From a virus, in the IMG/VR virus record IMGVR_UViG_3300031772_000013, positions 1 to 64,000 of that record: DNA of 64,000 nt; one strand, 5' to 3'. The position numbers and the translations under genes were made by a program. This document shows positions 5,645-59,626 of this stretch, in pieces. How positions within the stretch are numbered: the first letter of the stretch is position 1; the number at the start of each line of letters is the position of its first letter. The notes beneath the pieces were generated by a model. The model did not search any database, was not told the DNA's origin, and saw only the letters and a list, made by a program, of their open reading frames with translations.

Positions 5645-5919
5645 TGGCCCGCCCCGCAACACACCCCGACGTCGAGTACGCAGTCAATGACGCGAGCGGC
5701 AAAGAGCGCACCTTCAAGACCTTCGACGAGGCCGCTGGCTTCGCGCTCAGCATGGCCGTCTCACGCGGCGAAACCGATCTCGACGTGCTCATCTGGAGCG
5801 AAGAGGGCGCCGAGTGGTACGGCGGCGACGACGCCGTCGAGCAGTACAACGAGGACCCCGAAGCTAGCGTCTTCGAGCGGTTCGAGATCAGCGTCAACGC
5901 AGTAGGAAGGGTTTCATAA
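5644..5919 (+). CDS. acidic hypothetical protein
   Basis: coupled ORF. Confidence 0.75.
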   Translation: MARPATHPDVEYAVNDASGKERTFKTFDEAAGFALSMAVSRGETDLDVLIWSEEGAEWYGGDDAVEQYNEDPEASVFERFEISVNAVGRVS

Positions 5920-6962
5920 TGGCAACAAGAAGAGTGATGAGTCGCAAACAACCGAGCCTCCCCGGCTTCCCGGACGTCCCCGACCGGATCGAGGTCCGAA
6001 TCCCGACGATGCCCTGGACGCAGATCGGCGGGGACATGGATCCCGGCGCGTCCGGCGGCACGATCGCGACGGCCGACGGGGATCATATCGAGCTGCTCAA
6101 GATCATGCCGGTGCGCGAGTACGTCGGCGACAAGGAAGCGGCCGACGTCGGCTTCCCGTTCTGGACGAAGGAGGCGTGGTTCGATCTCGCTGACCTCGAC
6201 CCGAAGAACGAGGACGTGAAGAGCGCGCTCCGGTCCTCCGGTTTCGATAGCGGCGATCAGAAGTTTCAGTTCGAGGAGGAAATGACGCCGGAACAGCGCG
6301 CGCTCGTCATCGCCGAGGCCCTCCTCGACTACGGCCGCGGAGACGAAGGCCCCTCGGGCTGGTCCGAAGACCTTCCCGACCACGAGGTGAAATGGTGGAG
6401 CGACAAGGTCGCAACCCTCCCCGACTACGTCGCCGACGAGGACGAGGTGTTCCGCGACGATGTGCTTGGATACAGCGACATCCGAGAGAACCTCGAGAAG
6501 ATGGTCGAGCAGATGGCCGATCAGAGCTCCGCGCAAGCATGGAGCACCGTCGGCGACGGGGCCGCGGGCGACGCCGAAGAGGCTGGCTACGATCCGGAAA
6601 CGCTTGTCGGTGTCGCCGAGTTCGGTGACGCCGTAGGCGTCAACGGCGACGTCGAGACCGAGAAGACGCTCAAAGGCGTCGAGGACGATCTCGAAAAGGA
6701 AGGCTACGAGATGACCGAAGCCGGCGGCAGCGTGCCGTCCGACGAGGCGACGGTCGACCCCAATAGCGCCATCCGAGCGGTTGCGAGCGAGATGGACATC
6801 GAGGAAGACACGGTCGAGGAAGCCGCTCAGGGGATCGATTGGTGGCCGAAGGGCAAGAACAACGAGATCACCAGCTCGACGAGCGGATGGGCTTCGATCT
6901 GGGGTAAGAAGATGGCAGGCGGGACCGAAGAACGACGAACAAACGCACGAAGGAGAAACTGA
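5919..6962 (+). CDS. acidic hypothetical protein with basic termini
   Basis: 347-aa ORF, D/E-rich core. Confidence 0.8.
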   Translation: MATRRVMSRKQPSLPGFPDVPDRIEVRIPTMPWTQIGGDMDPGASGGTIATADGDHIELLKIMPVREYVGDKEAADVGFPFWTKEAWFDLADLDPKNEDVKSALRSSGFDSGDQKFQFEEEMTPEQRALVIAEALLDYGRGDEGPSGWSEDLPDHEVKWWSDKVATLPDYVADEDEVFRDDVLGYSDIRENLEKMVEQMADQSSAQAWSTVGDGAAGDAEEAGYDPETLVGVAEFGDAVGVNGDVETEKTLKGVEDDLEKEGYEMTEAGGSVPSDEATVDPNSAIRAVASEMDIEEDTVEEAAQGIDWWPKGKNNEITSSTSGWASIWGKKMAGGTEERRTNARRRN

Positions 6963-6964
6963 AG

Positions 6965-7336
6965 ATGACTACGAGAGCAGGGTCGCACATGCAAGACGCT
7001 TGGCACTACTTCGACTCGGTGCTCGGTGGCGGGACGTTTAGCCGAGAGGGCCAATCCTTGAAGGGGCGCGTGGAGCTCTACGAGAGTGGACGCAGGCGTG
7101 CATTCGAAGCCCTGGAAGCCAGCTCGCTCGGTTCCGAAGATGACGAGGTCTACGACGAAATCGACAGTCTCCTGAGCATCGACGAAATCGAGGACGAGGC
7201 CCATCTCAAGCAAGCGTCGAAACGCGGGCGCGCTCTCGTCGAGAAGCTCGGGCGCGCTCTGAACATCGACGCTAGGAGCGGCGAGACGCCGGAAGTTTTT
7301 GAGACACCACGAACAAACGCACGAAGGAGAAACTGA
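6965..7336 (+). CDS. hypothetical protein flanked by 33-bp direct repeats
   Basis: AGGAG RBS; identical repeats at 6935-6967 and 7309-7341. Confidence 0.75.
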   Translation: MTTRAGSHMQDAWHYFDSVLGGGTFSREGQSLKGRVELYESGRRRAFEALEASSLGSEDDEVYDEIDSLLSIDEIEDEAHLKQASKRGRALVEKLGRALNIDARSGETPEVFETPRTNARRRN

Positions 7337-7338: not shown

Positions 7339-7824
7339 ATGGCGACCAGCAAAATGCACGCAAGACGACAGAGCGCCCCCAAGGGGCGAGGCGGCAGTTC
7401 AGGCGGGGCGAACCCCAGGAACGACGGCAGGATCAGCGAGGAGCAGCACGACGACGCGATGCGCGTGCTCCGCGCGGAGTATTACCAGGGCGTCCGGAGC
7501 CTCGCCCAGCAGGTCATCGAGCACATCGCGGAGGGCATGGACGAAGGCGACGCGCTTCACCAGGAGGTCGACAGCTCGTACTGGGTCATCTACACGCATG
7601 CGAACTTCCAGGTTCTCATGTGCTCGGATCACCACAACGCCTACTCGGAAGAGTACGGCGAGGCGCCGGTCGATGGATCGGACATCAACTGGGCCGGGCT
7701 CGCGTTCGCGGCGCTATCGCGTGATGTGAGCGATCAGATCGGTGCGGAGAGAAGCACGGTCGACGAGGCACGACGGCGCCCCATGCAGCGGCCCGGATCG
7801 CGCGCGACGCGCAGGGGCCGGTAA
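7339..7824 (+). CDS. acidic-core protein, possibly Ocr-like DNA mimic
   Basis: DALHQEVDSSYWVIYT loosely resembles the Ocr core; Arg-rich ends. Confidence 0.45.
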   Translation: MATSKMHARRQSAPKGRGGSSGGANPRNDGRISEEQHDDAMRVLRAEYYQGVRSLAQQVIEHIAEGMDEGDALHQEVDSSYWVIYTHANFQVLMCSDHHNAYSEEYGEAPVDGSDINWAGLAFAALSRDVSDQIGAERSTVDEARRRPMQRPGSRATRRGR

Positions 7825-7829
7825 GTAAG

Positions 7830-8963
7830 GTGGCCAACGTAGACGACACCGTAACCGCCGAATGGACGTGGGGCGGACACCGATTCAGCGCACACGGTGT
7901 CGTCACGAAGGTCAGCGGCAAGACAACCAAGGTCCGACTCACCGAACATGCCGGCGAACACTTCGCCCCGGGAGTCGTCGTGACGGTGCCGACAGAGAAC
8001 GTACGCAAGAAGGAAAAGACGATGGCAAAAACTCCACTGCATGGCCGACAGGCCCCCCGGCCGCGCATGAACGCGGGCCGCCACATCGCTCCCGGCTACC
8101 CGGCGGAAAGGTTCCGCATCGGCCAGGACGTGGCGATGATCTCGAACCCCGGTCTGTTGGGGCACGTCGTGGGTTTCGATCCAGACGGATCGGTGATGGT
8201 ACAGTGGAGCGGCGGTCGAACAGTAACAGGAGTCGATCCGAGGAATCTCCGCGTCCAAGGTCGGGGTTACGCGGGGCGACGCGCTTCCGAGGCACCCAAG
8301 ATGAGCGGCGCCCAGCAGTGGCAAGATCGGATCCTTCGCAACGCGGACGACTACGCTGCGGGGCGTATCTCCTGGGACGTCTGGTCCGCGCGACAGAGCG
8401 AGATGTGGGAAAAGATCCGAACCAAGGGGCGGCGCCTGGTCAGCCAAGTTCTGAACTTGCAGTTCGAGACCGGATACAACTACTCACCACCTTATCCGGG
8501 CTCCGGCGTGAGCGAGGCGCGGCGCTCCAGCTCAGCGCGACCCTTGCCGGGGCGCCACCACTCGCGTGAGAGCAGCACTCCCTCGAAGCGCGACATCGAC
8601 GAGATGTTCGACGCCTACGTCGAAACGGCGCTGTGGTCTTCGACCGCCGAAGACGACACGCCGCTCGATCTCCTCGACGCCGAGGTCGCCGCCTCGGCGC
8701 TAGACAAGATGAGCAAGGACGTCGAGAGCTTCGCGCGCGAGAACGCGCACCTCATCGAATCGGCCGACGTGGCTACGCACCAGTACGGTCGCTGGGGGCG
8801 TGCGGGGCACGACTTCTGGCTCACGCGGAGCGGCCACGGCGCAGGGTTCTGGGACGGAGACTGGGAGCCGGAGGCAACAGCAGAGCGGCTCACCGACGCA
8901 GCCCATGCGTACGGCGAGACGTACCTGTACGTGGGCGACGACGGCATGATCTACTCGGACTGA
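7830..8963 (+). CDS. modular phage protein; C-terminal GHDFWLTRxGHGAGFWD domain
   Basis: several modules separated by basic linkers; internal RBS+ATG at 8022. Confidence 0.8.
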   Translation: MANVDDTVTAEWTWGGHRFSAHGVVTKVSGKTTKVRLTEHAGEHFAPGVVVTVPTENVRKKEKTMAKTPLHGRQAPRPRMNAGRHIAPGYPAERFRIGQDVAMISNPGLLGHVVGFDPDGSVMVQWSGGRTVTGVDPRNLRVQGRGYAGRRASEAPKMSGAQQWQDRILRNADDYAAGRISWDVWSARQSEMWEKIRTKGRRLVSQVLNLQFETGYNYSPPYPGSGVSEARRSSSARPLPGRHHSRESSTPSKRDIDEMFDAYVETALWSSTAEDDTPLDLLDAEVAASALDKMSKDVESFARENAHLIESADVATHQYGRWGRAGHDFWLTRSGHGAGFWDGDWEPEATAERLTDAAHAYGETYLYVGDDGMIYSD

Positions 8964-8977
8964 ACAGGAGAACCACG

Positions 8978-9224
8978 ATGCCAGACTTCGACTTTGACTC
9001 CGAGCGCGACGCGCAGGGGCCGGTAAGTAAGGTGGCCAACGTAGACGACACCGTAAACCGCCGAATGGACGTGGGGCGGACACCGATTCAGCGCGCACGG
9101 TGTCGTCACGAAGGTCAGCGGCAAGACAACCAAGATCCGTCTCACCGAACATGCCGGCGAACACTTCGCCCCGGGAGTCGTCGTGACGGTGCCGACAGAG
9201 AACGTACGCAAGAAGGAAGAGACG
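8978..9224 (+). pseudogene. frameshifted copy of the N-terminal module of ORF 7830
   Basis: AGGAG+ATG at 8978 reads in frame into VANVDDTV, then +1 insertion. Confidence 0.55.
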
Positions 9225-10052
9225 ATGGCAAGAACTCCACTCCACGGCCGACAGGCCCCCCGCCCGCGCATGAACGCGGGCATCGACGCCAACGAGGCCG
9301 CACACGGAACGACAAACTGGACCCAAGGCAAGCTCTACGGGTCCGACAGGGTTGCGCTGTTCGGACAGCGCGCTGACAGCGATCTCTGGATCGAGATCAT
9401 CGAGGGGGCGAGCGTAGCCTTCATCATCACGAAGATGCGCGATGCCGGCGAGCAGGGTGAGCGCGTCGTGAAGAAAGTCACGACCAACATCCGACAGACC
9501 GACCCCGACGCCGACCGTCTTGCTCGCTCTCTCGGGATGCCAGGGGCGGGCTACGCCATAGAGATCGGTGAGGGGCTACTTGGCTCCCGGCCCGCACCCC
9601 GGGGCCGACAAGCCCCCTCTCCAAACCCGTCGCGGGCGCGTGAGAACACGGGGCGGCCCCTGCCGAGGCCACCTATGCGTGCACGCGAGACGGACGAGCG
9701 CGAGTTCTCGATGAACTACGGCCAGCTCCCGCCGTTCGAGCAGTTCATGCGAGATATTCGGCGCCCCGATCCCGATCATTCTGGGCGGGCGTACTGGCCG
9801 AAGGGTGAGAAGTATTCGATGGAGCTAGTCACTCCACCCGAGATCGAACTCGCCGAAGCCTTCGGTCTCGAAGAGTTCAGGGCGGAGCGAGCGCGCACGG
9901 GACGTAACACCAGCGTGCGTGGGTTCAGAGACAACGAGAAGGCGATCTACGAATTTCTCGAATACCTCTCCGATAGGTGGGACAACGGCGACGATTTTGC
10001 CGGAGACCTCGCCTCTGGGATCATGACATCGCTCGGCTACGAGTGGATCTGA
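9225..10052 (+). CDS. modular hypothetical protein
   Basis: AAGGA+ATG at 9225; leader shared with the internal start at 8022. Confidence 0.75.
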   Translation: MARTPLHGRQAPRPRMNAGIDANEAAHGTTNWTQGKLYGSDRVALFGQRADSDLWIEIIEGASVAFIITKMRDAGEQGERVVKKVTTNIRQTDPDADRLARSLGMPGAGYAIEIGEGLLGSRPAPRGRQAPSPNPSRARENTGRPLPRPPMRARETDEREFSMNYGQLPPFEQFMRDIRRPDPDHSGRAYWPKGEKYSMELVTPPEIELAEAFGLEEFRAERARTGRNTSVRGFRDNEKAIYEFLEYLSDRWDNGDDFAGDLASGIMTSLGYEWI

Positions 10053-10064
10053 AAGGTTTTAGCC

Positions 10065-11126
10065 ATGACACGCAAGCAACTAGGACCAGAACGACAGCAG
10101 TGGAAGGGCATCGACGCCAACGAGCGAGCCTTCGGCACCGTCCGTAACGCCCTGGTGGGCATCATCCTGGACGGCGTCGCGGGCGTCTCGCCCGGGGTGC
10201 CAGGCGAAGAGCGCCGCATGATCTCGCCCGAGGACGCCGATCGGTACATCGAGCGCGGTCAGCGGGTGCTCGCGGACTTCGAGAGCCAGGAGATGGCGCC
10301 CGGAGGCGCTCGGGGCCGCGCGCAGAAGTGGATGGATCGCACGATCCTCGAACTGCGACAGTTCGTGGCCGACGCCGAGGCGGTGCGCTCCGGCAAGAAA
10401 CCTCAGAAGATGACGCCGGAGAGCTACGCAGAGCTCCGCAAGCACCTGGGGGTGGGCGAAGCCCGCCGCTACCCGCAGCCGAAGCTCCCGCCTCGCCAGT
10501 TCGTGGCCCCGCGCGCCAACCATGTCGCCGCACGCGGGATTTCGGACGACAAGAAACAGCGTGCGTTCAGTCGGCTCGACCATTTCTTCGGGAGCCCCTC
10601 CAATCAGAAGAAAGGGTTTCCGTCCGAAGACGCAGCCGCGAGCAGCGCCGCGACCCTGCTGGCCGGACAACTAGGGATGAAGTACGGCTCAGCGATCGAG
10701 ATCGTGAAGGAGTGGTATCGGCGCGACGGCGGGGTCTCCGAAGCACCCCGGGGGCGCCGCACCGTCAATGACTACATCGCCATCGACACCCGCGACCGCC
10801 CCATCGCCGGCCCCTTCAAGAGCTACAGCGACGCTCGCCAGGCGGCCGGCACGGGGGGCGCCGTCCAGTTCGTGCCGTCGAGAGGGAAGGCGTCAGAGGC
10901 GGGCGACGACCACCGTGAGCGTTCGCTAGATCGTCTGTACGGCCACACCCGCGGGCGCGATCCGTACCCGTTCCCATCCGATCGGGATCGCGGGATCTCT
11001 CGCCTGTACGGCCCCAAGTCCGGCGGCGCCGGGGCACCTACTCTTTCCCGTGGCGCCCACCGTCCCCCCGAGCGCGCGCCAAGTGCGCGTCGTCGAGCGA
11101 AGAGGCTCGTCGGCGGGAAGAAGTAA
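10065..11126 (+). CDS. modular basic hypothetical protein
   Basis: linkers VGEARR, VSEAPR, ASEAG. Confidence 0.8.
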   Translation: MTRKQLGPERQQWKGIDANERAFGTVRNALVGIILDGVAGVSPGVPGEERRMISPEDADRYIERGQRVLADFESQEMAPGGARGRAQKWMDRTILELRQFVADAEAVRSGKKPQKMTPESYAELRKHLGVGEARRYPQPKLPPRQFVAPRANHVAARGISDDKKQRAFSRLDHFFGSPSNQKKGFPSEDAAASSAATLLAGQLGMKYGSAIEIVKEWYRRDGGVSEAPRGRRTVNDYIAIDTRDRPIAGPFKSYSDARQAAGTGGAVQFVPSRGKASEAGDDHRERSLDRLYGHTRGRDPYPFPSDRDRGISRLYGPKSGGAGAPTLSRGAHRPPERAPSARRRAKRLVGGKK

Positions 11127-12142
11127 TGGCCGCCCGTCGAGCAACGCACGTCGTCGTCAGCGCGACACCCATAGGGCACGATCCTCAGTACCCTCGGGTG
11201 GAGATCCTGATGGGATCGGGACGGAAGTGGACCTTCCTTCTCGGCAGACTGGCTCCGAAGGCGGGATGGGCTCATCCCGTGCGCAGCGTTCACCTCGTAC
11301 ACGCCCCTTACGAGCCTCGCAATCAGGCAACGCTCGTGTACGGGGGTGAGTACAGGGTTGCGAAAGCTGCCGCCGCCAAAGAGCTTTGGATCGTCGAGCG
11401 TCGCTCGTCTACGCCGAGCCCAGACGACACGACTGAAGCTAGCCTGCGTTTTCAGGAGATTGCCGACACCGTCGCTTGGGCTGCGCGCGATAACGCAAGG
11501 GCGACGGAAGGTTTGCCGCGCGGTAGTGACGGTTGGCTCTTTCACCGAGCAGTCTACGATTCTATCAAGTCCATTACCCAGTCGCTCCAGTCTACGGCGG
11601 AGTTTGCTGACTACGACGCGCCGAGACCGCTGACCGCAGCCGAGGCTGAAAAGGTTGGAAAGATCGCCATGTCGGACGAGGGTATCAACCTGACAGACCC
11701 GAAGATTCGGGCGTTCATGACAAGTAAAACTGACGTTCTGCCGAGCCCAGACGAAACGACCGTGAAGGAGAACACGATGAGAAGCGAACGACTCAAGGGG
11801 AACACGATGAGAGACGAGCAAGACAACTCATGGGGCCGCGGGTACCACCCGCTACCGGCACGCCTCTCGGGGCTCGGCCGCTTCATGGACGGCCTCGCGC
11901 CGACGAAGCTCCTCGACCACAAGGTGTGGCCCGACGATCCGACGGAGGGTGGCGACATCCACATGCTCACGGTCGAGGCCACAGATGTGAGCATCGGTTT
12001 CCGCGATCTCGAAAGCCTCATCGAGAACGGGCTCATCAGGATCCAGAGCAACGAGCCTGGTGCGGTTTCGTTCTACTTCGTCGGCAAGTCAGAGCGAGAT
12101 CCGGGCGGTTCCGGATGGGCACCGGTCAGGAGACGCCGATGA
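11126..12142 (+). CDS. modular hypothetical protein
   Basis: TAATG coupling; internal repeats. Confidence 0.75.
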   Translation: MAARRATHVVVSATPIGHDPQYPRVEILMGSGRKWTFLLGRLAPKAGWAHPVRSVHLVHAPYEPRNQATLVYGGEYRVAKAAAAKELWIVERRSSTPSPDDTTEASLRFQEIADTVAWAARDNARATEGLPRGSDGWLFHRAVYDSIKSITQSLQSTAEFADYDAPRPLTAAEAEKVGKIAMSDEGINLTDPKIRAFMTSKTDVLPSPDETTVKENTMRSERLKGNTMRDEQDNSWGRGYHPLPARLSGLGRFMDGLAPTKLLDHKVWPDDPTEGGDIHMLTVEATDVSIGFRDLESLIENGLIRIQSNEPGAVSFYFVGKSERDPGGSGWAPVRRRR

Positions 12143-12414
12143 GCGACAAGAAGCGCTGGGACGATCTGCACGCGGCCTACGCGAAGGCGGGCGAGGCCGC
12201 GAACGAGTACGATCGCCAGCTCAGTCGGAAATACGGCAGCATCTACCAGTCGTCGTGGCTCAAGAAAGGGGATCGCGACAAGCTGGACGCGCTCCGCGCT
12301 CGCGCAGACAAGATCGGCGACAAGATCGTCGAGCTGCTTGTGCGCGTGAGCCCCCGCGGAGAGGCGTGGCTCTCAGGCGTGCCCGCTCACTGGATCCGCT
12401 CCGAGCTGACCTAG
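12139..12414 (+). CDS. hypothetical protein, possibly truncated by an amber codon
   Basis: AGGAG+ATG at 12139; frame continues past TAG into 12502. Confidence 0.65.
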   Translation: MSDKKRWDDLHAAYAKAGEAANEYDRQLSRKYGSIYQSSWLKKGDRDKLDALRARADKIGDKIVELLVRVSPRGEAWLSGVPAHWIRSELT

Positions 12415-12501
12415 GAAGACGCGATCCGACCCAAGAACGAACCGCTGTCCGTCACGCCGCCGAGCGCGTGGGGCGGTGGCGCACCGATTCAGGAGACCCC
12501 G

Positions 12502-13707
12502 ATGACCCAAGAACACGACGCCGAGGCCGCAGGTTCAGAGTACGCCCAAGACCAGATAGAGAACGACTACTTCATGGGCTGGGTCCGCGAGCAGATGCTC
12601 GAGGCCAGCCGCATGGATCCGTCCACGGTGCTGCCGCTCGAAACGAAGAGCGACGCTCGCGTGATCGCGAGGAACATGCTCCAGCAGCTCGAAGAGGACA
12701 CGAAGCGCGGGCTCGACCCGCGCGAAATCGCGAACCTGATCGGGGTCGACGGCACGACGCGCGACGACGTCAAAGAGTTCTTCAAGGGGTTCCGGGGCGC
12801 GCTGGATGAGTCGCGCGACTGGCTGGCGGACGAGCTCCTGGAGATCAAGGGGGGGTTGCGAGGTAGGCGCATGAGCGAGGCACCGCGAAGTCGTACCCCG
12901 GCGAGCGATCTGAGCCGCCTACACAATCCGTCAACCGCTGGCAACATCATCGTCTCGAACCGCAAGGACTTCGATCGCCTGCTCATCGAACGCCTCGGAC
13001 AACTCGGCCGCCCGGACGCCGTCGAAATCGCCAGGGAGTACAAAAAACTGGCGGCGGCCTACTTCGGTGCGTCCAGAACGCCCGCTTCCACTGCGGATGA
13101 GATTCTGGATCTCGAACAACGTCGCCATGCGGGGCGACGGGGCGTGAGCGAAGCGAGTCGCTCCGGCGCGACGAAAGTCAAATGGGTTGCGAACGGATAC
13201 GACGACGGCTTTCACGCATCCGTCGGACGGTATTTTCTGAAGACCATGCCCGTCGGCGACGGGCGCTTCGTCTGGAGCGTGTCGAAAGGCACCAAGATCG
13301 TCGCGGGCTCTGAAGCCGTCGATCCGTCCTGGCACGGCGGCTACAAGGGCGATCCGTCGGAACACGGCGCGCGAGTCGCCGCCGAGCTTGCTATGACTCT
13401 TCACAAGACTCGCTCCTCCCGCACTGCTGCCGTGTCCGAGAGCCGACGTGGCCCCACCCCCGTCGAAGACCCCGAGTACGTCATTCAAGGCGCCTACAGC
13501 GACGGCCGCATCACGGAATCGTTCGGATTCGACGACGAAGACACCGCCCGCTCCGAAGCCTGGAAGCTCTCCAAGTCGCCCTACTTCGAGGGCGACCACG
13601 TCCGCATCATCACGCGCGACGGCGAGCTCGTGTGGGACTCGCGGGGCAGGGGTGTGAGCGAGGCCCGCCGCCCAAAAGCCCGTCGGCCGGTGCGGCGTCG
13701 GCGCTGA
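12502..13707 (+). CDS. modular protein with four (V/M)SE(A/S) linkers
   Basis: AGGAG RBS; motifs at 12871, 13144, 13432, 13654. Confidence 0.8.
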   Translation: MTQEHDAEAAGSEYAQDQIENDYFMGWVREQMLEASRMDPSTVLPLETKSDARVIARNMLQQLEEDTKRGLDPREIANLIGVDGTTRDDVKEFFKGFRGALDESRDWLADELLEIKGGLRGRRMSEAPRSRTPASDLSRLHNPSTAGNIIVSNRKDFDRLLIERLGQLGRPDAVEIAREYKKLAAAYFGASRTPASTADEILDLEQRRHAGRRGVSEASRSGATKVKWVANGYDDGFHASVGRYFLKTMPVGDGRFVWSVSKGTKIVAGSEAVDPSWHGGYKGDPSEHGARVAAELAMTLHKTRSSRTAAVSESRRGPTPVEDPEYVIQGAYSDGRITESFGFDDEDTARSEAWKLSKSPYFEGDHVRIITRDGELVWDSRGRGVSEARRPKARRPVRRRR

Positions 13708-14105
13708 CCGGCCCGTACGGGTCGCAAGAAGAGATCCTCGACTACATCAACGAGACCGCCCCCTACCTAGGCGGGCTCTCGGATGTGCACACGCGCCTCA
13801 GTCTGTCCCCGGAGATGTTCAGGTGGAAGTTCCGCGAACTGCCCATCTCGAAGCTGCTGCACCTCAAATCTGATTGGCGCCGCTGGTACGAAGGTGAACG
13901 GGCAGAGCGCCGGGACGAAGACGGCGACGACAGTTACTTCGACGGGCTCGAACAAGAGTGGAACGATGGCATCGTGGGGCCGATCATCGTGGTGATCATC
14001 GACGGAGAGATCGACATCGGCGACGGTTGGCACCGAGCTGCGATTGCCGTGACGCAGGGGTGGAAGACGGTGCCGGCGGTGGTTGGAACGGAAAAGGACG
14101 TGTAA
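13704..14105 (+). CDS. ParB/sulfiredoxin-like domain protein
   Basis: PIIV...IGDGWHRA; start uncertain (CTG overlapping the upstream TGA). Confidence 0.65.
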   Translation: MTGPYGSQEEILDYINETAPYLGGLSDVHTRLSLSPEMFRWKFRELPISKLLHLKSDWRRWYEGERAERRDEDGDDSYFDGLEQEWNDGIVGPIIVVIIDGEIDIGDGWHRAAIAVTQGWKTVPAVVGTEKDV

Positions 14106-14107
14106 GG

Positions 14108-15124
14108 GTGCTAGCCTCTGAAGAATTGTGGGATCTTTGGGGATCGTCTCACGAGTGGTCGAGCGCGATCACCGGAGCGAGCGCCGAGATACTTACCATT
14201 CCCGGCTATCGCGTCCCTGATGATCCTAACGCCTTCACTGCTGCCAGGGCCTTGCTTGAAGCGCTTCAGCGCTCTCCACGTTCCCGCAAGGCGCTCTGGC
14301 ACGGACGACCTCTCGAAAGGATCCCGAAGCCGGGGGAGCACGTCTCGCTCCCACTTACCGCAACAACCCCAGAGAAGAGCGAAGCGCTCCGTCTGAGCGC
14401 GCAAGGCGACACCCAGGCGCTCTTCACTTTTCCTGCGGGCACGCGCGCGCTACGGTACAGCGACATCGAACGGATCGTGGCAGGGCGATTTATCGTGCGC
14501 AAGGTTCGCCGGGAGACGGACCCCTACTGGGGGACGCTCATCGTAGTGGTACAACTTGAGGAGGACGCCACCGTGTACCGCCAACCCAAGGAGCCGGAAC
14601 CACGCGCGCTAGAGGAGACCGCCGATCAGCCGAACCCCTGGTATCACCTGACGGATCGAGCTAGGTTCAGGCTCGACCCCAGGTTCGCGCCGGAGGACAA
14701 CGCCATCGCCATCGTCGATCGCTCAGGGCGCCCCGGCATCTACCTCGGGCAGGACGTGGAACGATGGGTCAACGGCTACAACTACTGGCGGCCGTTCGTC
14801 GTCGAGTTCGACGTCGATCCGTCTGTGGTCGAAGATCCTGGCGTGCATGGGAGATACGGCGGCGAGATGTTCGTCCCCGCCACCTCGTTCGACAAGCTCA
14901 CCATCCTGCGCGTGATCCCGCTCGACGCCCACGCCCGGGAAGTGTTCGGGGAGGCAGGATGGATCGAGGGCGAGCTGGGGATCGAGTTCGACACCGGGGA
15001 TCCGATTCGGCCGGGGCACCGCTCCTACCGGGGCTACCGATACTCCGGGCCGGACGTGCGCGACATGCCGCCCTCACAGGTGAACCACCTGAAGCGCCAG
15101 CTACGACAGGTGAAACGCCAATGA
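14108..15124 (+). CDS. two-module protein, both modules ADP-ribosyltransferase-like
   Basis: LWHG..LTATT..ERIV and WYHLT..GIYLG..GEMF patterns. Confidence 0.5.
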   Translation: MLASEELWDLWGSSHEWSSAITGASAEILTIPGYRVPDDPNAFTAARALLEALQRSPRSRKALWHGRPLERIPKPGEHVSLPLTATTPEKSEALRLSAQGDTQALFTFPAGTRALRYSDIERIVAGRFIVRKVRRETDPYWGTLIVVVQLEEDATVYRQPKEPEPRALEETADQPNPWYHLTDRARFRLDPRFAPEDNAIAIVDRSGRPGIYLGQDVERWVNGYNYWRPFVVEFDVDPSVVEDPGVHGRYGGEMFVPATSFDKLTILRVIPLDAHAREVFGEAGWIEGELGIEFDTGDPIRPGHRSYRGYRYSGPDVRDMPPSQVNHLKRQLRQVKRQ

Positions 15125-15942
15125 GACAACAGCGGCTCGCCGAAGCACCGAGGCTGGTCTACCGCGGCACGCAGCAGCGTGAGCAGCACGGAGTTCGCGG
15201 TGCGACCTCGTGGACCGATTCGTTGCCGGTGGCGATGATCTGGTCAGCGGTGCCGGCCGACCCGTGGGCGTCGTCGCGCGAGCTGAACCACGCCCACTTC
15301 ATCGACACGTCTACCATCCACGCGGCCCACCTGAACTTTCAAAACCCGCTGGCGCTCGACTACAACCAGGCGAGCGTCGGTGACATCATGCGCGCGCTTC
15401 GATACGGTGAGCCCGACGGCATCGCTGACGACGAGGTGCGCAAGGTGTTCAACTACCTGCACAACCGGATGATGGGCAAGGCCGCGGGGGGCGAGTTCGG
15501 CTACGTTGTGTACGACGAGGACGGGGGCGAGATCGATCCCGACGATCGAGAGCTTTCGTTCGACATGAGTGACTCGCTCATTCGCGACATGCGCGACGAG
15601 TTCGAGTACGCCGACGAGAAGTTCGAGGTCGCGGATCGCATCGCCGCCGACGCCTACGTGTTCTTCGACTCCAAGACGGTCCAGGCCGTCGCGCGCCGGC
15701 TCGGATTCGACGGGTTCGTCTACTGGGACATCTTCGAGGGCTGCGAGTACGCCGCGCGCGACCTGTTCGGCAAGGACGTGGACTGCGCCAACATCGAAGG
15801 TATCGAGGAGGCCACGGATCTGAAAGACGAGACGGTGTTCACGCACCGCACGTACCGCCCACTCTCGGAGGAGAGCGTGGTGCCCGCGTGGGATGCACCG
15901 TCGCTCACTCTGCTGCCAGAGCTACCGAACTGGCTGCGCTAA
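15121..15942 (+). CDS. ART-like domain protein (polyvalent-protein type)
   Basis: VYRGT, SWTDSLPVA, AHLNFQNPL, GFDGFVY. Confidence 0.55.
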   Translation: MRQQRLAEAPRLVYRGTQQREQHGVRGATSWTDSLPVAMIWSAVPADPWASSRELNHAHFIDTSTIHAAHLNFQNPLALDYNQASVGDIMRALRYGEPDGIADDEVRKVFNYLHNRMMGKAAGGEFGYVVYDEDGGEIDPDDRELSFDMSDSLIRDMRDEFEYADEKFEVADRIAADAYVFFDSKTVQAVARRLGFDGFVYWDIFEGCEYAARDLFGKDVDCANIEGIEEATDLKDETVFTHRTYRPLSEESVVPAWDAPSLTLLPELPNWLR

Positions 15943-18475: not shown

Positions 18476-18919
18476 TCAGGCCGACATCTCTGCGAGCTTC
18501 ACGTAGACGACAACGGCCTCGTCGAACGGCAGATCGTTCAGCACGACCGCGCCGGCGCCTTTCGGGCGGAGCCCCTTCATCTTCATCGAGTAGAGCTTGC
18601 CCTCGCGCACGAAGAGGGTCTTCTTCGCAAGCTGGCGCTTCAGATCCTTGCGGGTGAGGTAGTCCGCGAGGATGTCGCCGATCACCATGTCCCCGTCGGG
18701 CTGAAGATGCTCGCCGTAGGCTTCCACCGTTGGGAGCGTCTTCGCGTAGGCGTCGATCTCATCGTGGAGCGCCTGGGGGTAGACGAGCGTCATCCCGCCG
18801 TGGCCGTCATTTCGGGCCTCGCCTCGCTGCTTCCCGTCCACGTAGACGGTGGCGGCGAAGGCAGCCGTCTCCTCGGAGAGGCGGGCGTTGTAGGTCACGT
18901 TCTTGAGTTCGATTTTCAT
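18476..18919 (-). CDS. phage/ICE hypothetical protein (SEET..F.A...NDG.GG type)
   Basis: AAGGA RBS; recurrent motif. Confidence 0.75.
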   Translation of the reverse strand: MKIELKNVTYNARLSEETAAFAATVYVDGKQRGEARNDGHGGMTLVYPQALHDEIDAYAKTLPTVEAYGEHLQPDGDMVIGDILADYLTRKDLKRQLAKKTLFVREGKLYSMKMKGLRPKGAGAVVLNDLPFDEAVVVYVKLAEMSA

Positions 18920-18937
18920 GGCTGATGTCCTTTTCGA

Positions 18938-19033
18938 AGAGAGCTACGAGGCGTTACGACCGCTTCCTTTTGGAGGAGATTCTCCTCGCGCAGGCCGCTC
19001 TAGGTTTCCCTGTCTTGGCGCCTCGTGCTCTCT
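18938..19033 (-). ncRNA. candidate structured leader RNA
   Basis: 15-bp closing stem plus internal hairpins, downstream of a TACAAT -10 box. Confidence 0.4.
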
Positions 19034-19127
19034 GGGGGTCAGACGGGGGTGCTCCACCGGTATTCACCGATTGTATACGAAAAAGATGACACCTGAATAT
19101 CCTTCAGGTACCTTCCGTCTATCCTTC

Positions 19128-19700
19128 ATGCCCCGCCGTTCCGTCCCCGTCGTAACCCTCCTCCTGGTTGCCACGAACCTGCTCGCCTACCTCTTCGAGC
19201 TGGGGGCCGGCGGCCAGGCGGTCTGCTACGCCCACGGGCTGGTCCCGGCCAAGTTCGTCCACTCGGGCGCGCTCGGTCCGCTCTTCACGAGCCTCTTCCT
19301 CCACGACCCTGCGGGGCTGGCCCACATCGTCGGGAACATGGCCTTCTTGGCCCTTTTTGGCGCCATCGTCGAGGGAGCCCTCGGGGGGTCCCCGTTCCTG
19401 GGCCTCTACCTCGTCGCGGGCGCCCTCGGGGGCCTGATGCACGTCCTGGTGAGCCCAACGGCGACCGAGCCCCTGGTGGGCGCCTCGGGGGCCATCTTCG
19501 GGATCCTGGCCGTCGCTGGAGCCCTCCGGCCCCGCCTGCTCGGCTTCGTCGCCGTCTTCGTTGGGATCAACATCTTCCACGCCGTCGCGGGGGGCGGGGG
19601 CAACGTCTCATTTGGGGCGCATCTTGGCGGCTTCGTTGCCGGGGTCCTCGTCGTGGCGATCATGCGGGCGGCCGGCAGCGAATCTTTGGAGGCAACATGA
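19128..19700 (+). CDS. rhomboid-family intramembrane serine protease
   Basis: HIVGNM, GASGA (catalytic Ser), AHLGG (catalytic His), multiple TM helices. Confidence 0.92.
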   Translation: MPRRSVPVVTLLLVATNLLAYLFELGAGGQAVCYAHGLVPAKFVHSGALGPLFTSLFLHDPAGLAHIVGNMAFLALFGAIVEGALGGSPFLGLYLVAGALGGLMHVLVSPTATEPLVGASGAIFGILAVAGALRPRLLGFVAVFVGINIFHAVAGGGGNVSFGAHLGGFVAGVLVVAIMRAAGSESLEAT

Positions 19701-50982: not shown

Positions 50983-52701
50983 ATGAAGAAGAGCCTACCG
51001 ATCAAGCGTGCCGTTTTCTGGCTCGACGGCGGCGCGCGCGTGCCCGGGTGGTCGACCGGCAAGACGTGGAACGGTTGGGGCGTGCCGCTGTTCGATGAGA
51101 GCCAGATCGAAGCGGCGAGAGCCGCGCTCCGAGCCGCTGGCATAGAGAGCGAGTTGCACAGCGGCGACATCTTGGAGCTCTGGCCCGTCGAGGAGCCCGA
51201 TCTGATCACTGAGCACCAGGCGATTCGACTCAAGGGGAAAACCTACTACTGGCAACTCGACGGCCTCACCTGGAACGAAGAGAGCTCGGGCGGGCGCCGC
51301 GCCGATGAGGCTAGCGCAGACGTCTGGGGCCACGCTCCATTGCCTGAGTCGATGTTAAGGGATGTGGCGCGCGATCTTCGTCGCTTGAACAATATGACGT
51401 CCTCGGCGGCGTTTCGTGAAGGCACTAAACTTCGCGTCTATCTTCAGCTCGCGGACGACGGGACTTGGGGGATCGGAGACCGCGAACCCACGTCCGGCCG
51501 ATGGGGCTCGGCGGCCATACCTGGAAACAACCGCCGATTCAACGCCACCGCCGTTGCGCGCGATCTTCTCGCGCAGGTCGAACGAGATAGCCATGCCGAG
51601 GAGAGACACATGCGCGAAGACAACAAGAAAGGCCCTTTTTTCGTGACGCTCTCGGCAGCGCCGAATCGTGACTTCGGACCAGGGAGCCACGAGGCGTCAG
51701 TCAGAATCCCTCCTCGGAAGCAGAAAGTGGTGAGCCTCGCCTACGCTTCGAAGGTCGTGCAGCGCTTCATCGCAGAACATGATCTAGGCAGCGGCAACTG
51801 GACAGGCGGACTCATCACTGATGCTTCGGGGAAGGCGATCGGCCGTGTCGCCTACAACGGGCGCATCTTCGATCTCGATGACAAGATCATGTGGGACAAC
51901 CAGACCTCTCCGGGCGTGCGCGAAGACCGGTTCGAGATCCCGGGCTGGATCGCCGCAGTGGGGTGGAGTGGAGTCGAGTGGGTTGTGTACGGTATCGGAG
52001 AAGACGAAGACGAAGCTGCTGCCGACGCCAGAAATTGGACGGAGACGCCGTGGCTTACGTTCTTGCCGATTTCCAAAGATCAGATCGCGGCCATGGGTGA
52101 CCACAAAGAGGAGAACCGATGCGCCGCAATCGGTCTCGATGTCGGCAACGCCAGCCGTACGGCTCCGCGACATTTGCGCGCCGAAGAACATCGCGTGCGC
52201 GAAAGCCGGTTCGAGATCCCCGGCTGGAGCGTCGGGTACCACTCCGAGATCAGCGCTCACGCCGCAGTTCGAACGGGCAGGGGGCGCGACTGGCTCTTTG
52301 TCATGACGACGCCCGAGGACCGAGAGCCGCGGAGCCTCGACGAAGAGGTGACGGTCGGGCTCTACTTCTTCGACGGAGACGACTGGGAGCAGATCGCGTA
52401 CGTCGACTTCCCCGACGTCCGTTCGGTGATCAAACTGGGCGACGCAGAACTCCACCTCGTCATCGAGCACGGACTGTCGCTGGATCAATCCCGCGAGCTA
52501 CTCGTCCAGGAGTTCGACGACTGGGACGGCGAAGACACGCTCACGTCGTGGATGCAGACGATCCTCAAGGATGCTGGCGTAGAGCCGGAGGAGGCGGGCG
52601 CAGATGCCGCCACGCACGAGGCTACCGAGCAAATCTACAACGCCTCTCCAGCGCAGATCCTCGAGTACATGGACGAGCGATCGAAAGCCCTCAACGAGTG
52701 A
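50983..52701 (+). CDS. polyvalent-type modular protein
   Basis: WNGW..P.F module, GNWTGG...YNGR module, linkers ADEA, MRED, VRED, VRES. Confidence 0.8.
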   Translation: MKKSLPIKRAVFWLDGGARVPGWSTGKTWNGWGVPLFDESQIEAARAALRAAGIESELHSGDILELWPVEEPDLITEHQAIRLKGKTYYWQLDGLTWNEESSGGRRADEASADVWGHAPLPESMLRDVARDLRRLNNMTSSAAFREGTKLRVYLQLADDGTWGIGDREPTSGRWGSAAIPGNNRRFNATAVARDLLAQVERDSHAEERHMREDNKKGPFFVTLSAAPNRDFGPGSHEASVRIPPRKQKVVSLAYASKVVQRFIAEHDLGSGNWTGGLITDASGKAIGRVAYNGRIFDLDDKIMWDNQTSPGVREDRFEIPGWIAAVGWSGVEWVVYGIGEDEDEAAADARNWTETPWLTFLPISKDQIAAMGDHKEENRCAAIGLDVGNASRTAPRHLRAEEHRVRESRFEIPGWSVGYHSEISAHAAVRTGRGRDWLFVMTTPEDREPRSLDEEVTVGLYFFDGDDWEQIAYVDFPDVRSVIKLGDAELHLVIEHGLSLDQSRELLVQEFDDWDGEDTLTSWMQTILKDAGVEPEEAGADAATHEATEQIYNASPAQILEYMDERSKALNE

Positions 52702-53006
52702 GCAACCCGCGCTACCTGAGCCTCTGGCTCATCGACCAGTACGTGTCCGCAGCCAGGAAGCTCGGCGTGTCGGTCGTGGCGCGAAGCTCTCGCGGCTTCA
52801 TGGCCGCGTACCGCCGAGCCGGCGGAGATCCGGACCGGCTGTCGGACGACTGGGCGAGTAAGCGCGACGCCTTCGTGGCGAGGCACATGGCGCAGGTGAA
52901 GGCGCGCGGCGAGCCGCTCTGGAAGGACGGCGTGCCAACGCGCAGACACCTGGCGCTGATCATGTGGGCGTACTCGCCGAGCCCGGCGCGTCTTGCTAAA
53001 CTGTAA
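52698..53006 (+). CDS. hypothetical protein (PTRRHLALIMWAYSP)
   Basis: GTGA-coupled. Confidence 0.7.
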   Translation: MSNPRYLSLWLIDQYVSAARKLGVSVVARSSRGFMAAYRRAGGDPDRLSDDWASKRDAFVARHMAQVKARGEPLWKDGVPTRRHLALIMWAYSPSPARLAKL

Positions 53007-53011
53007 TTGAC

Positions 53012-54091
53012 ATGCGCCTCCGTGATCATGCGCTCCGTGACCCACCGGTTCACACGACGCCAGATGAAGTGATCCGGACGGACGTCTACGTGCCACAGGT
53101 GGGTGACCGCCACGAGATCACGGCGCCCTCGATGCACCCATTCGATGCTGTCGTTACCGGCGTGAACGGATCGAAGGCCGCAGTTGCTCGCGCCGATCCC
53201 GGTGGAGAGCCGAGCGCCTACGGCGTGACAATGCCAGCGGCGTCGGTAGCTCACTTCGTCAATGATCTACGTGGGCACGTCTACAGCCAGTACGCTTCCG
53301 GCGATCCGGTCATCGACGCTGTCACACAAGGTGACGCCGAATTTCTCGGCAAGGGCGACGACGGGCTCGTCTTCCGCGTCGACACCTCAGAAGGCGAGGT
53401 CGCCGTGAAGGTGTCGACAACCGTACCATTCCAGCCGTTCAACCCGAATCACCTGACTCCGCGCGAAGCCGCCAACAGGCTCTCGGAGCAGCAGGCCGCA
53501 AGTGAGTCGATGCTAGCCGACGGGGTCCCGGGTATCCTTCCCTCGACTTTCGTCATGCACAGTGACAAAGGCTTCATGGTCAAGCCGTACGTCGAGATCC
53601 CAGATCACCTGACGCGCGCTCAGCTCGACGAGGCAGCAGCCTCGGTCGAGGCCGCACACAGAGCTGGCTGGGCGTTTCACGATTCTCTACAGGTTGGTCT
53701 ATGGGATGGCCACGTCTATCATTTCGATACCGGCAAGGTTGAGCACGTCGGCGTCGGCAAACGCACCGACCCCGACGATTGGCACTCCGATGCGCATAGC
53801 GATGTGCAGAGTCTTAAGCGTCTGTTCTCTGACAACGGCGAGCGCTACTTGACCAAAGCCGAGCAGCAAAACCCGATCAAGGAGTTCGAGGAGTTGTATG
53901 GCTTGGATGTTCGGAGGCTGGATCTCGAACAACGCAAGAAGTACCGAGGGCTCGTTCTGCGACTTGCTCACAAGATCAAGCTGTTCCTGATAAACCATCC
54001 CGGCGAGGACCATGGCCTGTGGTCAGAAATACCCGAGTACGCCCGCGATGAGGCTCGTGATATGATGAACCGACTCAAGGATCCAACATGA
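53012..54091 (+). CDS. protein-kinase-like fold protein
   Basis: LGKGDDGLV, VAVK, HD, FDTG. Confidence 0.65.
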   Translation: MRLRDHALRDPPVHTTPDEVIRTDVYVPQVGDRHEITAPSMHPFDAVVTGVNGSKAAVARADPGGEPSAYGVTMPAASVAHFVNDLRGHVYSQYASGDPVIDAVTQGDAEFLGKGDDGLVFRVDTSEGEVAVKVSTTVPFQPFNPNHLTPREAANRLSEQQAASESMLADGVPGILPSTFVMHSDKGFMVKPYVEIPDHLTRAQLDEAAASVEAAHRAGWAFHDSLQVGLWDGHVYHFDTGKVEHVGVGKRTDPDDWHSDAHSDVQSLKRLFSDNGERYLTKAEQQNPIKEFEELYGLDVRRLDLEQRKKYRGLVLRLAHKIKLFLINHPGEDHGLWSEIPEYARDEARDMMNRLKDPT

Positions 54092-54375
54092 AGCCTCTCA
54101 CAATCCCAACTGTTCACCTGGGCGGCACCTCGGCTCAGAACCTCATTGATCCGCTTCTGACCGCCACGAAAGCCTTGCGGGCTGCCATGCGTGCCCTCGA
54201 TGCGACGGAGCCCAATTCTCGCGACTACTACCTGCAAGGAGCAGACGCTTTTCAGCAAGCCGTGCGCGAACAAGATGCGCGGGGACGCAAGCTTCGCGAG
54301 GTCTCCGATGAGCTATACGAGATCGTAGAAGCGGTGCAGGAGCAGGCCGACGCGCGGGTGCGGCAGAGGCGTTAG
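54088..54375 (+). CDS. hypothetical protein
   Basis: ATGA-coupled. Confidence 0.7.
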   Translation: MKPLTIPTVHLGGTSAQNLIDPLLTATKALRAAMRALDATEPNSRDYYLQGADAFQQAVREQDARGRKLREVSDELYEIVEAVQEQADARVRQRR

Positions 54376-54426
54376 TTAGCCTTCTCCTTGCGCGCGGCCT
54401 GCGGGCGGGGCATCATCGAACTTCAC

Positions 54427-54768
54427 GGGGCCGATCGGTTTCGACGCTGGAAAGGAGAACCGTCTCGCGTGCAAGAGCGCCCATCTCTTCAAGGGGCATC
54501 TGCTAGTTGCCAACGACAACAGCATCGCTCTGCCCGTCCAGAAGGCGGCCTGAGCCGTCGGGCTAGGAAGATCGTCCTGGTACCAAGTCCGGCGCAATCA
54601 CTAGGGCTGGCTCATCGAGAAGCCTCGAGTAGATGAGCGAGGATCACACGAGAAGTAGGGCGCGGCCGAATCCGCGAACTCAGCCGGCGGGGACACGCCG
54701 GCTACGCACGTGAACGAGAGACGCTTCAACTTCTAACGGACCGGGGTTCGATTCCCCGCGGCTCCACC
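54427..54768 (+). ncRNA. ssrA: tmRNA (transfer-messenger RNA)
   Basis: 5' GGGGCCG..GGTTTCGAC; 3' GGGGTTCGATTCCCC-G-CGGCTCC-ACC; G3:U acceptor pair; tag ORF 54509-54553 ANDNSIALPVQKAA*. Confidence 0.95.
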
Positions 54769-54824
54769 GGCCCCCCTCCCGGGGTCGTGGTGGAGGCAGA
54801 AGGGAATCACCGCCCTTCGCCCCA

Positions 54825-54860
54825 GAAACGGCTCGGCAACCCCGGGCCGTTTCGTTTTCT
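54825..54860 (+). terminator. intrinsic terminator after the tmRNA
   Basis: GAAACGGCTCGG...CCGGGCCGTTTC then GTTTTCT. Confidence 0.7.
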
Positions 54861-55173: not shown

Positions 55174-55185
55174 GGCTGCCGACTC

Positions 55186-55779: not shown

Positions 55780-55896
55780 GACCGAGAGTCTACCGGGGCC
55801 TCGTGGACTGCGCTAGAGAGGGCACGAATGCCCGCCCTTCGCCCCAGAAGCGGCCCGGTAACCCCGGCCGTTTCGCTTTCTGGTAGGCTACCCTCC

Positions 55897-57680: not shown

Positions 57681-57685
57681 TGTTT

Positions 57686-59622: not shown

Positions 59623-59626
59623 CGCG

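What the first reader, a model, noticed from the sequence alone, without database searches (positions are those of the whole stretch)
7339..15942. Candidate protease-processed virion polyproteins: recurrent hydrophobic-X-Glu motif at domain boundaries
Seen: modules are separated by Arg/Gly/Pro linkers containing VDE-ARR, ASE-AP, VSE-ARR (8508), ARE-N, ARE-T, VGE-ARR (10452), VSE-APR (10734), ASE-AG, MSE-APR (12871), VSE-ASR (13144), VSE-SRR (13432), VSE-ARR (13654), LEE-T and LAE-APR. Codons differ between copies (GTG AGC GAG, GTC TCC GAA, GTG TCC GAG), so conservation is at protein level. Established: T4 gp21 (L/I-X-E) and phiKZ gp175 (S/A/G-X-E) prohead proteases cleave internal head proteins after Glu. 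Inference: these genes encode packaged polyproteins cut into many small effectors for injection, so the motif acts as a plug-in tag for new cargo. The protease gene is not in this window.
Basis: partly seen in the sequence, partly recalled or inferred. Interest (0 to 1): 0.85.

Follow-up and report, generated by a model that had tools for sequence, protein, structure and literature searches.

The report
Glu-marked linkers in viral cargo proteins
A run of modular, effector-like proteins in an uncultured bacterial virus is punctuated by one short conserved peptide (Gly-Val/Met-x-Glu-Ala/Ser-Arg/Pro-Arg); the same peptide also divides a protamine-like protein next to the capsid genes of related viruses, so it is most likely a cut site for a virus protease, though no cutting has been measured.

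Summary
It reads G-[VM]-x-E-[AS]-[RP]-R.

**Enrichment.** There are 10 copies in 2,753 aa of the cluster against 2 in the other 19,508 aa. Shuffled cluster proteins average 0.21.

**Placement.**
- Codons differ between copies.
- All four sites of the 401-aa protein fall in low-confidence AlphaFold linkers.
- In 56 relatives one conserved domain ends in this motif, followed by unrelated modules.

**Two additions.**
- The motif heads a conserved C-terminal polybasic tail (…VSE-ARRPKARRPVRRRR), present in 33 of 77 homologues.
- It repeatedly cuts up a protamine-like protein encoded next to a jelly-roll capsid candidate in related genomes.

**Genomic context.**
- The 75-kb record is a fragment and lacks that structural block.
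- Four fuller relatives gave no Pfam hit for T4- or HK97-type protease, HK97-type capsid, Terminase_6N, ClpP, S49, adenain or Trypsin_2.
- Their best protease candidate is a transglutaminase-like cysteine peptidase directly upstream of the protamine-like gene.

**Verdict.** The protease-site reading is plausible (about 45%) but unproven, and the T4/phiKZ analogy applies to grammar only. This scan reported similar Glu-linker cargo proteins in T4-like phages on other DNA. This case is a new variant in a different, probably tailless, virus lineage.

The parts
5919..6962 (+). First gene of the operon (347 aa), acidic, ending in the basic tail ...EERRTNARRRN
   Evidence: GC3 frame and translation; homologues in G001 and G002
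6965..7336 (+). 123-aa gene ending ...VFE-TPRTNARRRN. It shares a 33-bp junction (tail, ribosome-binding site, ATG) with the previous gene
   Evidence: repeat D3
7339..7824 (+). 161-aa protein with VDE-ARR (7759) 18 residues before a basic C-terminus
7830..8963 (+). 377-aa three-module protein. Sites ASE-APK (8283) and GVSE-ARR (8508); the C-terminal module matches phrog_1915
9032..10052 (+). Gene whose N-terminal module (9001-9281) is a 96% copy of 7799-8078, with one extra A near 9056 that shifts the frame. Weaker sites RARE-N (9636) and RARE-T
10065..11126 (+). 353-aa protein with GVGE-ARR (10452), GVSE-APR (10734), ASE-AG (10890) and a basic C-terminus
11126..12142 (+). 338-aa protein without the strict motif. 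It has two internal SD+ATG sites (11765, 11795) and ends ...APVRRRR
12139..12414 (+). 91-aa gene (MSDKKRWDDLHAAY...). In relatives this module is fused in front of domain D1
12502..13707 (+). 401-aa four-module protein, D1 to D4. Each module is followed by the motif, with Glu at residues 126, 217, 313 and 387
13654..13704 (+). C-terminal tag VSE-ARRPKARRPVRRRR: motif plus a 14-residue polybasic tail
   Evidence: 33 of 77 homologues end polybasic, and in 29 of them a residue-x-Glu directly precedes the tail, most often 13-15 residues before the end
13632..14105 (+). Small protein with a weak ParB_N-like match; start codon uncertain
14108..15124 (+). 338-aa protein whose N-terminal half is ADP-ribosyltransferase-like. 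Weak site ALEE-T at 14609
15121..15942 (+). 273-aa ART-PolyVal-like protein starting MRQQRLAE-APR, a leader-like N-terminus ending in the motif
50983..60568 (.). Second modular cluster (GNAT, ParB-like and kinase-like modules) that uses the variant [MVL]-R-E-[DSTAP] at module borders
18903..19700 (+). Rhomboid-domain protein conserved in all five related genomes. Considered as the protease and judged unlikely

Best explanation
The stretch is an operon of polyvalent-type cargo or effector proteins, small unrelated modules strung together, in an uncultured virus that is probably membrane-containing and tailless.

Each module is followed by an Arg/Gly-rich disordered linker carrying G-[VM]-x-E-[AS]-[RP]-R. 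Many of the proteins end in the same motif followed by a roughly 14-residue polybasic tail.

Most likely sequence of events:
1. The basic linkers and the tail carry the proteins into the particle with the DNA (inferred).
2. A virus-encoded maturation protease cuts after the Glu. This frees the modules and removes the tail, and the same enzyme cuts the protamine-like core protein precursor (inferred).
3. The best candidate enzyme is a transglutaminase-like cysteine peptidase encoded directly upstream of the core-protein gene in relatives (inferred from position only).

Shown: the motif, its enrichment, its placement in linkers, its conservation, and its presence in a structural-block protein.

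Inferred: packaging, cutting and the identity of the enzyme.
For: - Enrichment: 10 vs 2 hits, p = 4e-8, shuffles average 0.21.
- An independent de novo search recovers the motif from 56 homologues.
- Domain D1 always ends ...DWLADELLEIK-x-EM-RGGG-[VM]xE[AS][RP]R and is then followed by unrelated sequence.
- AlphaFold model: the four motif Glu lie in segments with pLDDT below about 60, between domains with pLDDT 66-98. The decoy lies in a helix.
- Codons vary between copies.
- Cluster 2 keeps only [MVL]-R-E and varies the residues after the Glu. This fits a P3/P1-type protease specificity.
- The core protein of relatives has a leader MGLYDDRLxxLSE-[PS]RR, then basic segments (30-48% Arg+Lys) bounded by motif sites, with the last site just before the hydrophobic half. 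That is 23 sites against 0.72 expected.
- The Transglut_core protein scores 26.4 bits against a cut-off of 23. The Cys, His and Asp residues that I read as the catalytic triad, from my own knowledge of the fold, are conserved in the three aligned sequences. The gene is present at 66-70% identity in all four relatives, always next to the core-protein gene.
- Effector-type modules: ART-PolyVal lead (0.92, 188 shared features), ART-like, GNAT.
- Precedents: T4 gp21 cuts after L/I-X-E and a capsid-targeting leader loads cargo (PMC9026906). SPN3US gp245 cuts after A-X-E (PMC10052503). Polyvalent proteins are predicted to be packaged and processed (PMC5512222).
Against: - There is no direct evidence of cutting or packaging.
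- The record itself contains no protease candidate except a rhomboid.
- About a quarter of the D1 tails lack a clear motif. One core protein (L053) has no strict site.
- The residues after the Glu (A-R-R) are as conserved as those before it in cluster 1. A binding motif would explain that equally well.
- The transglutaminase-like protein is linked only by gene position. It could instead be a lytic or cross-linking enzyme.
- No such enzyme turned up as a virus maturation protease in one literature search.
- The cluster lies outside the structural block.
Confidence: 0.45

Rival explanations
1. The motif and the basic tail are an uncut docking or loading signal. They would bind DNA, the inner capsid face or the packaging ATPase, and the multi-module proteins would stay whole.
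For: - The residues after the Glu (A-R-R) are strongly conserved, and the C-terminal tag ...RRPKARRSVRRRR is conserved.
- A polybasic C-end is also found on a small protein conserved in all five genomes.
- The only ATPase candidate is of the HerA/FtsK kind, with a weak hit to a type IV coupling-protein domain.
- Phage N4 vRNAP and plasmid ArdC/TraC1 are delivered uncut (PMC5512222).
Against: - A loading signal is needed only once per protein, yet the Glu motif recurs after every module while the long tail occurs only at the end.
- Cluster 2 keeps [MVL]-R-E without the basic residues.
- In the core protein the sites fall exactly where composition changes.
Confidence: 0.25
2. The internal motifs are scars of gene fusion. 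When a tagged gene fuses to the next one, the head of its C-terminal tag remains as a linker, without a present function of its own.
For: - The same sequence heads the C-terminal tags.
- Ribosome-binding sites plus ATG occur in frame inside ORFs near linkers.
- The 12139 gene is fused to D1 in relatives.
Against: - The motif persists behind D1 in 42 of 56 homologues that are only 45-70% identical, while everything around it has diverged and the rest of the tag is lost.
- Synonymous codons have turned over.
- The motif recurs inside the core protein, which is not a fusion of tagged genes.
Confidence: 0.12
3. Cutting happens, but by a host protease or only after delivery into the next cell, not by a virion maturation protease.
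For: - No classical head protease was found in four fuller relatives.
- Iyer et al. consider processing after injection (PMC5512222).
Against: The same sites in a protamine-like protein encoded beside the capsid candidate point to a step in particle assembly. No common bacterial protease with this specificity comes to mind (own knowledge).
Confidence: 0.12
4. The pattern is chance or a by-product of Arg/Ala/Glu-rich composition.
For: The loose three-residue form is barely enriched. At a low PSSM threshold, shuffled proteomes give 5-6 hits.
Against: The strict form gives 10 observed against 0.21 expected, with 0 of 2000 shuffles reaching 10. It is conserved in position across homologues.
Confidence: 0.02

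Closest known systems
T4 internal proteins and Alt with capsid-targeting sequence, cut by gp21 after L/I-X-Glu; phiKZ gp175 and SPN3US gp245 (A-X-Glu) (PMC9026906, PMC10052503)
   Same: - The site grammar is hydrophobic-x-Glu followed by a small residue.
- A short N-terminal leader ends in the site (MRQQRLAE-APR on an ART protein; MGLYDDRLxxLSE-PRR on the core protein).
- An ADP-ribosyltransferase is among the cargo.
- Alt is trimmed at both ends.
   Different: - Four fuller relatives gave no Pfam hit for an S77/S78 protease, HK97-type capsid or Terminase_6N.
- The sites lie between modules and in front of a C-terminal tail, not only behind an N-terminal leader.
- There is a strong Arg preference after the Glu.
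Polyvalent proteins of phages and conjugative elements (Iyer, Burroughs, Anand, de Souza, Aravind 2017, PMC5512222)
   Same: Strings of unrelated small effector domains (ART-PolyVal, GNAT, ParB-like, RadC in a relative) that reshuffle between relatives and are predicted to travel with the DNA.
   Different: Here the proteins are short (2-4 modules). They carry no built-in zincin-like peptidase. They are joined by one defined linker motif and a shared C-terminal tag; the paper's text has no occurrence of 'linker'.
Adenovirus core maturation: pVII, pre-mu and pVI cut by adenain on the DNA (own knowledge)
   Same: A very basic DNA-condensing precursor is cut at repeated short sites. Basic terminal peptides are removed. 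The virus is probably tailless, with jelly-roll proteins.
   Different: No adenain (PF00770) hit. The conserved residue before the cut is Glu, not Gly-Gly or Gly-x-Gly.
Encapsulin cargo-loading peptides (own knowledge)
   Same: A short conserved C-terminal tag behind a flexible linker is shared by otherwise unrelated cargo proteins.
   Different: The tag here is polybasic, preceded by a putative cut site, and there is no encapsulin shell.
Earlier findings of this scan in T4-like phages (e1-5785372, e1-5657094)
   Same: Cargo proteins built of modules joined by Glu-ended, Arg-rich linkers.
   Different: Those genomes are reported to encode a T4-type head protease. This lineage does not show one.

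Membership tests
Polyvalent proteins (Iyer et al. 2017) | Two or more unrelated effector-type domains in one polypeptide of a virus or plasmid | tested here: met
   AlphaFold gives four separate domains in the 401-aa protein. Domains D1 and D4 recur in many different combinations.
Polyvalent proteins (Iyer et al. 2017) | Domains drawn from the polyvalent repertoire (ART-PolyVal, GNAT, DdrB-like ParB, RadC, kinases) | tested here: inconclusive
   ART-PolyVal appears only as an ESM Atlas lead (0.92, 188 shared features). GNAT is found by Pfam in cluster 2. ParB_N is weak (E 0.017). RadC is fused to D3 in relative P0041. Most modules have no family.
Polyvalent proteins (Iyer et al. 2017) | Delivered into the host together with the DNA | not testable with these tools
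   Needs virion proteomics or infection assays.
Substrates of a T4/phiKZ-type prohead protease | Site of the form hydrophobic or small residue, any residue, Glu, then cut | tested here: met
   Motif [VM]-x-E-[AS]. This is a pattern match only.
Substrates of a T4/phiKZ-type prohead protease | Genome encodes a gp21-family (S77) or HK97-family (S78) protease | tested here: not met
   No hit at E <= 1 in G000-G004, three of them with terminal repeats. A very divergent homologue cannot be excluded.
Substrates of a T4/phiKZ-type prohead protease | HK97-fold capsid with portal and terminase | tested here: not met
   No Phage_capsid or Terminase_6N hit. No PHROG hit on ten proteins of the conserved block. 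Portal families were not searched. Instead there is a HerA-like ATPase and a jelly-roll-like 438-aa protein.
Adenain-type core maturation | Peptidase_C5 protease and (M/I/L)XGG-X sites | tested here: not met
   No PF00770 hit. Gly-Gly is seen only behind D1 and is not conserved in this genome.
Transglutaminase-like cysteine peptidases (PF01841), for the candidate enzyme in relatives | Pfam score over the cut-off, with Cys, His and Asp conserved | tested here: met
   26.4 bits against a cut-off of 23. GDCD, THV and MDGT are invariant in three sequences. The catalytic role of these residues is my own reading of the fold.
Transglutaminase-like cysteine peptidases (PF01841), for the candidate enzyme in relatives | Cuts the Glu motif | not testable with these tools
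   Only gene adjacency to the motif-bearing core protein.
Double jelly-roll capsid viruses (PRD1-like) | Major capsid protein with two jelly rolls | tested here: inconclusive
   The model has pLDDT 83 and pTM 0.83. Best matches are PBCV-1, SPV1, HHIV-2 and PRD1 P3 at Z 5.3-5.8, mixed with sugar-binding jelly rolls.

The most novel reading that the evidence does not exclude
A widespread, undescribed lineage of large (85-120 kb) tailless, membrane-containing bacterial viruses loads interchangeable effector modules and a protamine-like core protein through a shared C-terminal polybasic tag. It then matures them with a transglutaminase-like cysteine protease that cuts after Glu. This would be an adenovirus-like core-maturation and cargo-delivery system in bacterial viruses, evolved independently of the T4 system but converging on the same site grammar.
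Probability: 0.2. Interest if true: 0.85.

Novelty: new variant of a known kind. Interest (0 to 1): 0.62.

Why it matters
If the motif is a real cut site, it gives a simple rule for reading where dozens of uncharacterised viral cargo proteins begin and end.

It would also offer a portable tag-plus-site pair for loading foreign proteins into particles. T4's capsid-targeting sequence has been used this way.

It would show that Glu-directed maturation of packaged effectors is not confined to T4-like heads. It would then also occur in a lineage with no recognisable HK97 capsid, terminase or prohead protease.

The protamine-like, motif-punctuated core protein and the transglutaminase-like enzyme make the idea directly testable by co-expression.

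Tried and rejected
**Similarity searches**
- DNA similarity to plasmids found nothing. Similarity to phages found one 150-bp hit in a Brevundimonas jumbo phage.
- A single-protein scan of viral contigs found nothing. An alignment-based scan was needed.

**Family searches**
- Pfam and PHROGs on the cluster proteins gave almost nothing.
- PHROGs on 40 other ORFs of the record and of relatives found no capsid, portal, terminase or protease.
- Pfam searches of five genomes for S77, S78, Terminase_6N, Phage_capsid, ClpP, S49, adenain and Trypsin_2 were all negative. The one exception was an 11.9-bit S49 fragment.

**Protease candidates set aside**
- Rhomboid: rejected because the sites lie in soluble basic linkers and the residue before the cut is Glu (own knowledge of rhomboid specificity).
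- RadC-like JAB protein: judged to be cargo rather than protease. In a relative it is fused behind module D3 through an ...MRE-T linker, and Iyer et al. argue it acts on nucleic acid.

**Other ideas**
- Ubiquitin-like LRGG tail behind D1: rejected because D1 is helical and Gly-Gly is not kept in this genome.
- DNA-level recombination site: rejected because of codon turnover.

**Structure searches**
- The PDB sequence search with the transglutaminase-like profile was uninformative.
- Foldseek on the capsid candidate gave no significant hit.

**Threshold effect**
- The position-specific scoring matrix (PSSM) built from the motif does not separate signal from shuffles at a 9-bit threshold. Only scores of about 13 or more do.

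Full report
**What the window is**

The window is bases 1-64000 of a 75,451-bp IMG/VR virus record with about 63% G+C. GC3 frame plots resolve the stretch 5.9-16 kb into about twelve plus-strand genes of 91-401 aa. It is not a few long polyproteins. Pfam and PHROGs recognise almost nothing in them.

**The observation**

The recurring element is longer than "hydrophobic-X-Glu".
- A Gibbs search on the tails of 56 homologues, excluding this genome, converged on G-[VM]-x-E-[AS]-[RP]-R.
- In the record, the strict form [VMIL].E[AS][RPS][RK] occurs 10 times in the cluster's 2,753 aa and twice in the other 19,508 aa (Fisher p = 4e-8).
- Shuffling the cluster proteins gives 0.21 on average and never 10 in 2000 trials.
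- The loose three-residue form is only about twofold enriched, so ARE-N, ARE-T, ASE-AG and LEE-T are weak members.
- Codons turn over between copies: Ser is AGC, TCC or TCA and Glu is GAG or GAA. The constraint is therefore on the protein.

**Placement**

The 401-aa protein (12502-13707) has 77 database relatives. Most share only one or two of its four parts, in different combinations.
- Domain D1 ends in a conserved helix (...DWLADELLEIK-x-EM), then a Gly-rich turn, then the motif. After that the sequences become unrelated.
- An AlphaFold model places folded domains at 7-120, 154-210, 227-307 and 326-379.
- All four motif Glu (126, 217, 313, 387) lie in low-confidence segments. The look-alike MLEASR (32-37) lies inside a confident helix.

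**Two additions**

*A C-terminal tag.* The motif heads a conserved C-terminal tag.
- 33 of 77 homologues end in a polybasic tail, against 35 of 656 proteins in five related genomes.
- In 29 of those 33 a residue-x-Glu directly precedes the tail, most often 13-15 residues before the end. An example is ...VSE-ARRPKARRPVRRRR.
- Several genes of this operon end in the same style.

*A variant in the second cluster.* A second modular cluster (50983-60568; GNAT, ParB-like and kinase-like modules) uses [MVL]-R-E-[DSTAP] at its borders. The constant part across both clusters is therefore a hydrophobic residue, any residue, then Glu.

**The wider genome**

An alignment-based scan found related IMG/VR genomes of 84-116 kb, three of them with terminal repeats. 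Gene-by-gene comparison shows that they share a block of about 30 kb that the present record lacks. That block would lie exactly across the record's ends. The record is therefore a fragment, despite a 100% completeness estimate.

The block has no PHROG hits. It contains:
- many membrane proteins;
- fibre-like proteins sharing an N-terminal peptide;
- a 438-aa beta-rich protein.

A HerA/FtsK-type ATPase lies just beyond the block in the relative G003 (53,980-55,941).

The 438-aa protein has 173 representative homologues. Its confident model matches jelly-roll capsid proteins best (PBCV-1, SPV1, HHIV-2, PRD1 P3), but only weakly, at Z 5.3-5.8.

None of the five genomes gave a Pfam hit for S77, S78, HK97-type capsid, Terminase_6N, ClpP, S49, adenain or Trypsin_2.

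**The motif in a structural-block protein**

Directly upstream of the capsid candidate, all relatives encode a 500-800-aa protein with this layout:
- a leader MGLYDDRLxxLSE-[PS]RR;
- one or more protamine-like segments (30-48% Arg+Lys) bounded by motif sites;
- a last site (HVME-ASRPRRR) just before a hydrophobic half.

Twelve such proteins hold 23 strict sites against 0.72 expected from shuffles. These counts are not independent, because the proteins are homologous.

**Candidate enzymes**

Directly upstream of that gene lies a 224-aa Transglut_core protein.
- It scores 26.4 bits against a cut-off of 23.
- Cys, His and Asp residues that I read as the catalytic triad are conserved.
- It is 66-70% identical in all four relatives and absent from this record.

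A rhomboid is conserved in all five genomes, but it is an unlikely enzyme for soluble basic linkers. A RadC-like JAB protein behaves as another cargo module.

**Nature of the modules**

ESM Atlas leads put 15121-15942 near ART-PolyVal and the first half of 14108-15124 near ADP-ribosyltransferases, including ones fused to Mu F or portal proteins. This fits the polyvalent proteins of Iyer et al. (PMC5512222).

**Reading**

The best explanation is a cut site for a virus maturation protease, combined with basic loading segments (about 45%). The site grammar matches T4 gp21 (L/I-X-E; PMC9026906) and SPN3US gp245 (A-X-E; PMC10052503), but the enzyme family does not.

Rivals are:
- an uncut docking signal;
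- fusion scars;
- cutting by a host enzyme or after delivery.

Nothing here measures cutting or packaging.

This scan has reported similar Glu-linker cargo proteins in T4-like phages. The present case differs in virus lineage, in the C-terminal tag and in the candidate enzyme.

Noticed in passing
whole record; L026-L028 (G003 about 17-46 kb): The 75-kb record is a fragment. It lacks a block of about 30 kb of conserved, probably structural genes that four relatives share. That block would lie across the record's two ends. The 100% completeness estimate is misleading.
   Followed up: yes
window 9001-9281 vs 7799-8078: A 280-bp module (stop, ribosome-binding site, small N-terminal domain, basic linker ending ...PRPRMNAG) is duplicated at 96% identity. 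The second copy has one extra A near 9056, which shifts the frame. This could be an assembly error, a pseudogene or a programmed shift.
   Followed up: partly
window 8011-8025, 9213-9227, 11765-11779, 11795-11809; core proteins in L037-L057: Ribosome-binding-like sequences plus ATG lie in frame inside ORFs next to linkers (AAGGAGAACACGATG). The core proteins of relatives have a conserved ...AREE-x-MA... at the start of the basic segment. Internal translation starts may produce single modules alongside the long forms.
   Followed up: no
window 18903-19700: A rhomboid-domain protein (Pfam E 8e-21) is one of only three proteins conserved in all five related genomes.
   Followed up: partly
window 60790-62340 (-): A 516-aa beta-rich protein next to the integrase is conserved in all five genomes (47-67% identity). 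It has no family match and is probably structural.
   Followed up: partly
window 22087-22356 (-): An 89-aa protein conserved in all five genomes ends in a run of Arg (...QARRRR). This is the same kind of tail as on the cargo proteins.
   Followed up: no
window 29-44 kb: The replication genes of this record (PolA, primase-polymerase, SNF2 and UvrD helicases, PD-(D/E)XK nuclease) have no homologue in the four relatives. The relatives carry other replication genes. The lineage therefore swaps whole replication modules.
   Followed up: partly
L027:3671-4042 (G003 23671-24042): A 123-aa protein in the conserved block looks GroES-like by eye. It has no Pfam match.
   Followed up: no
window 6932-6975 and 7306-7349: Two consecutive gene junctions share a 33-bp identical piece that encodes the tail ...TNARRRN, the stop, a ribosome-binding site and the next ATG.
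   Followed up: no
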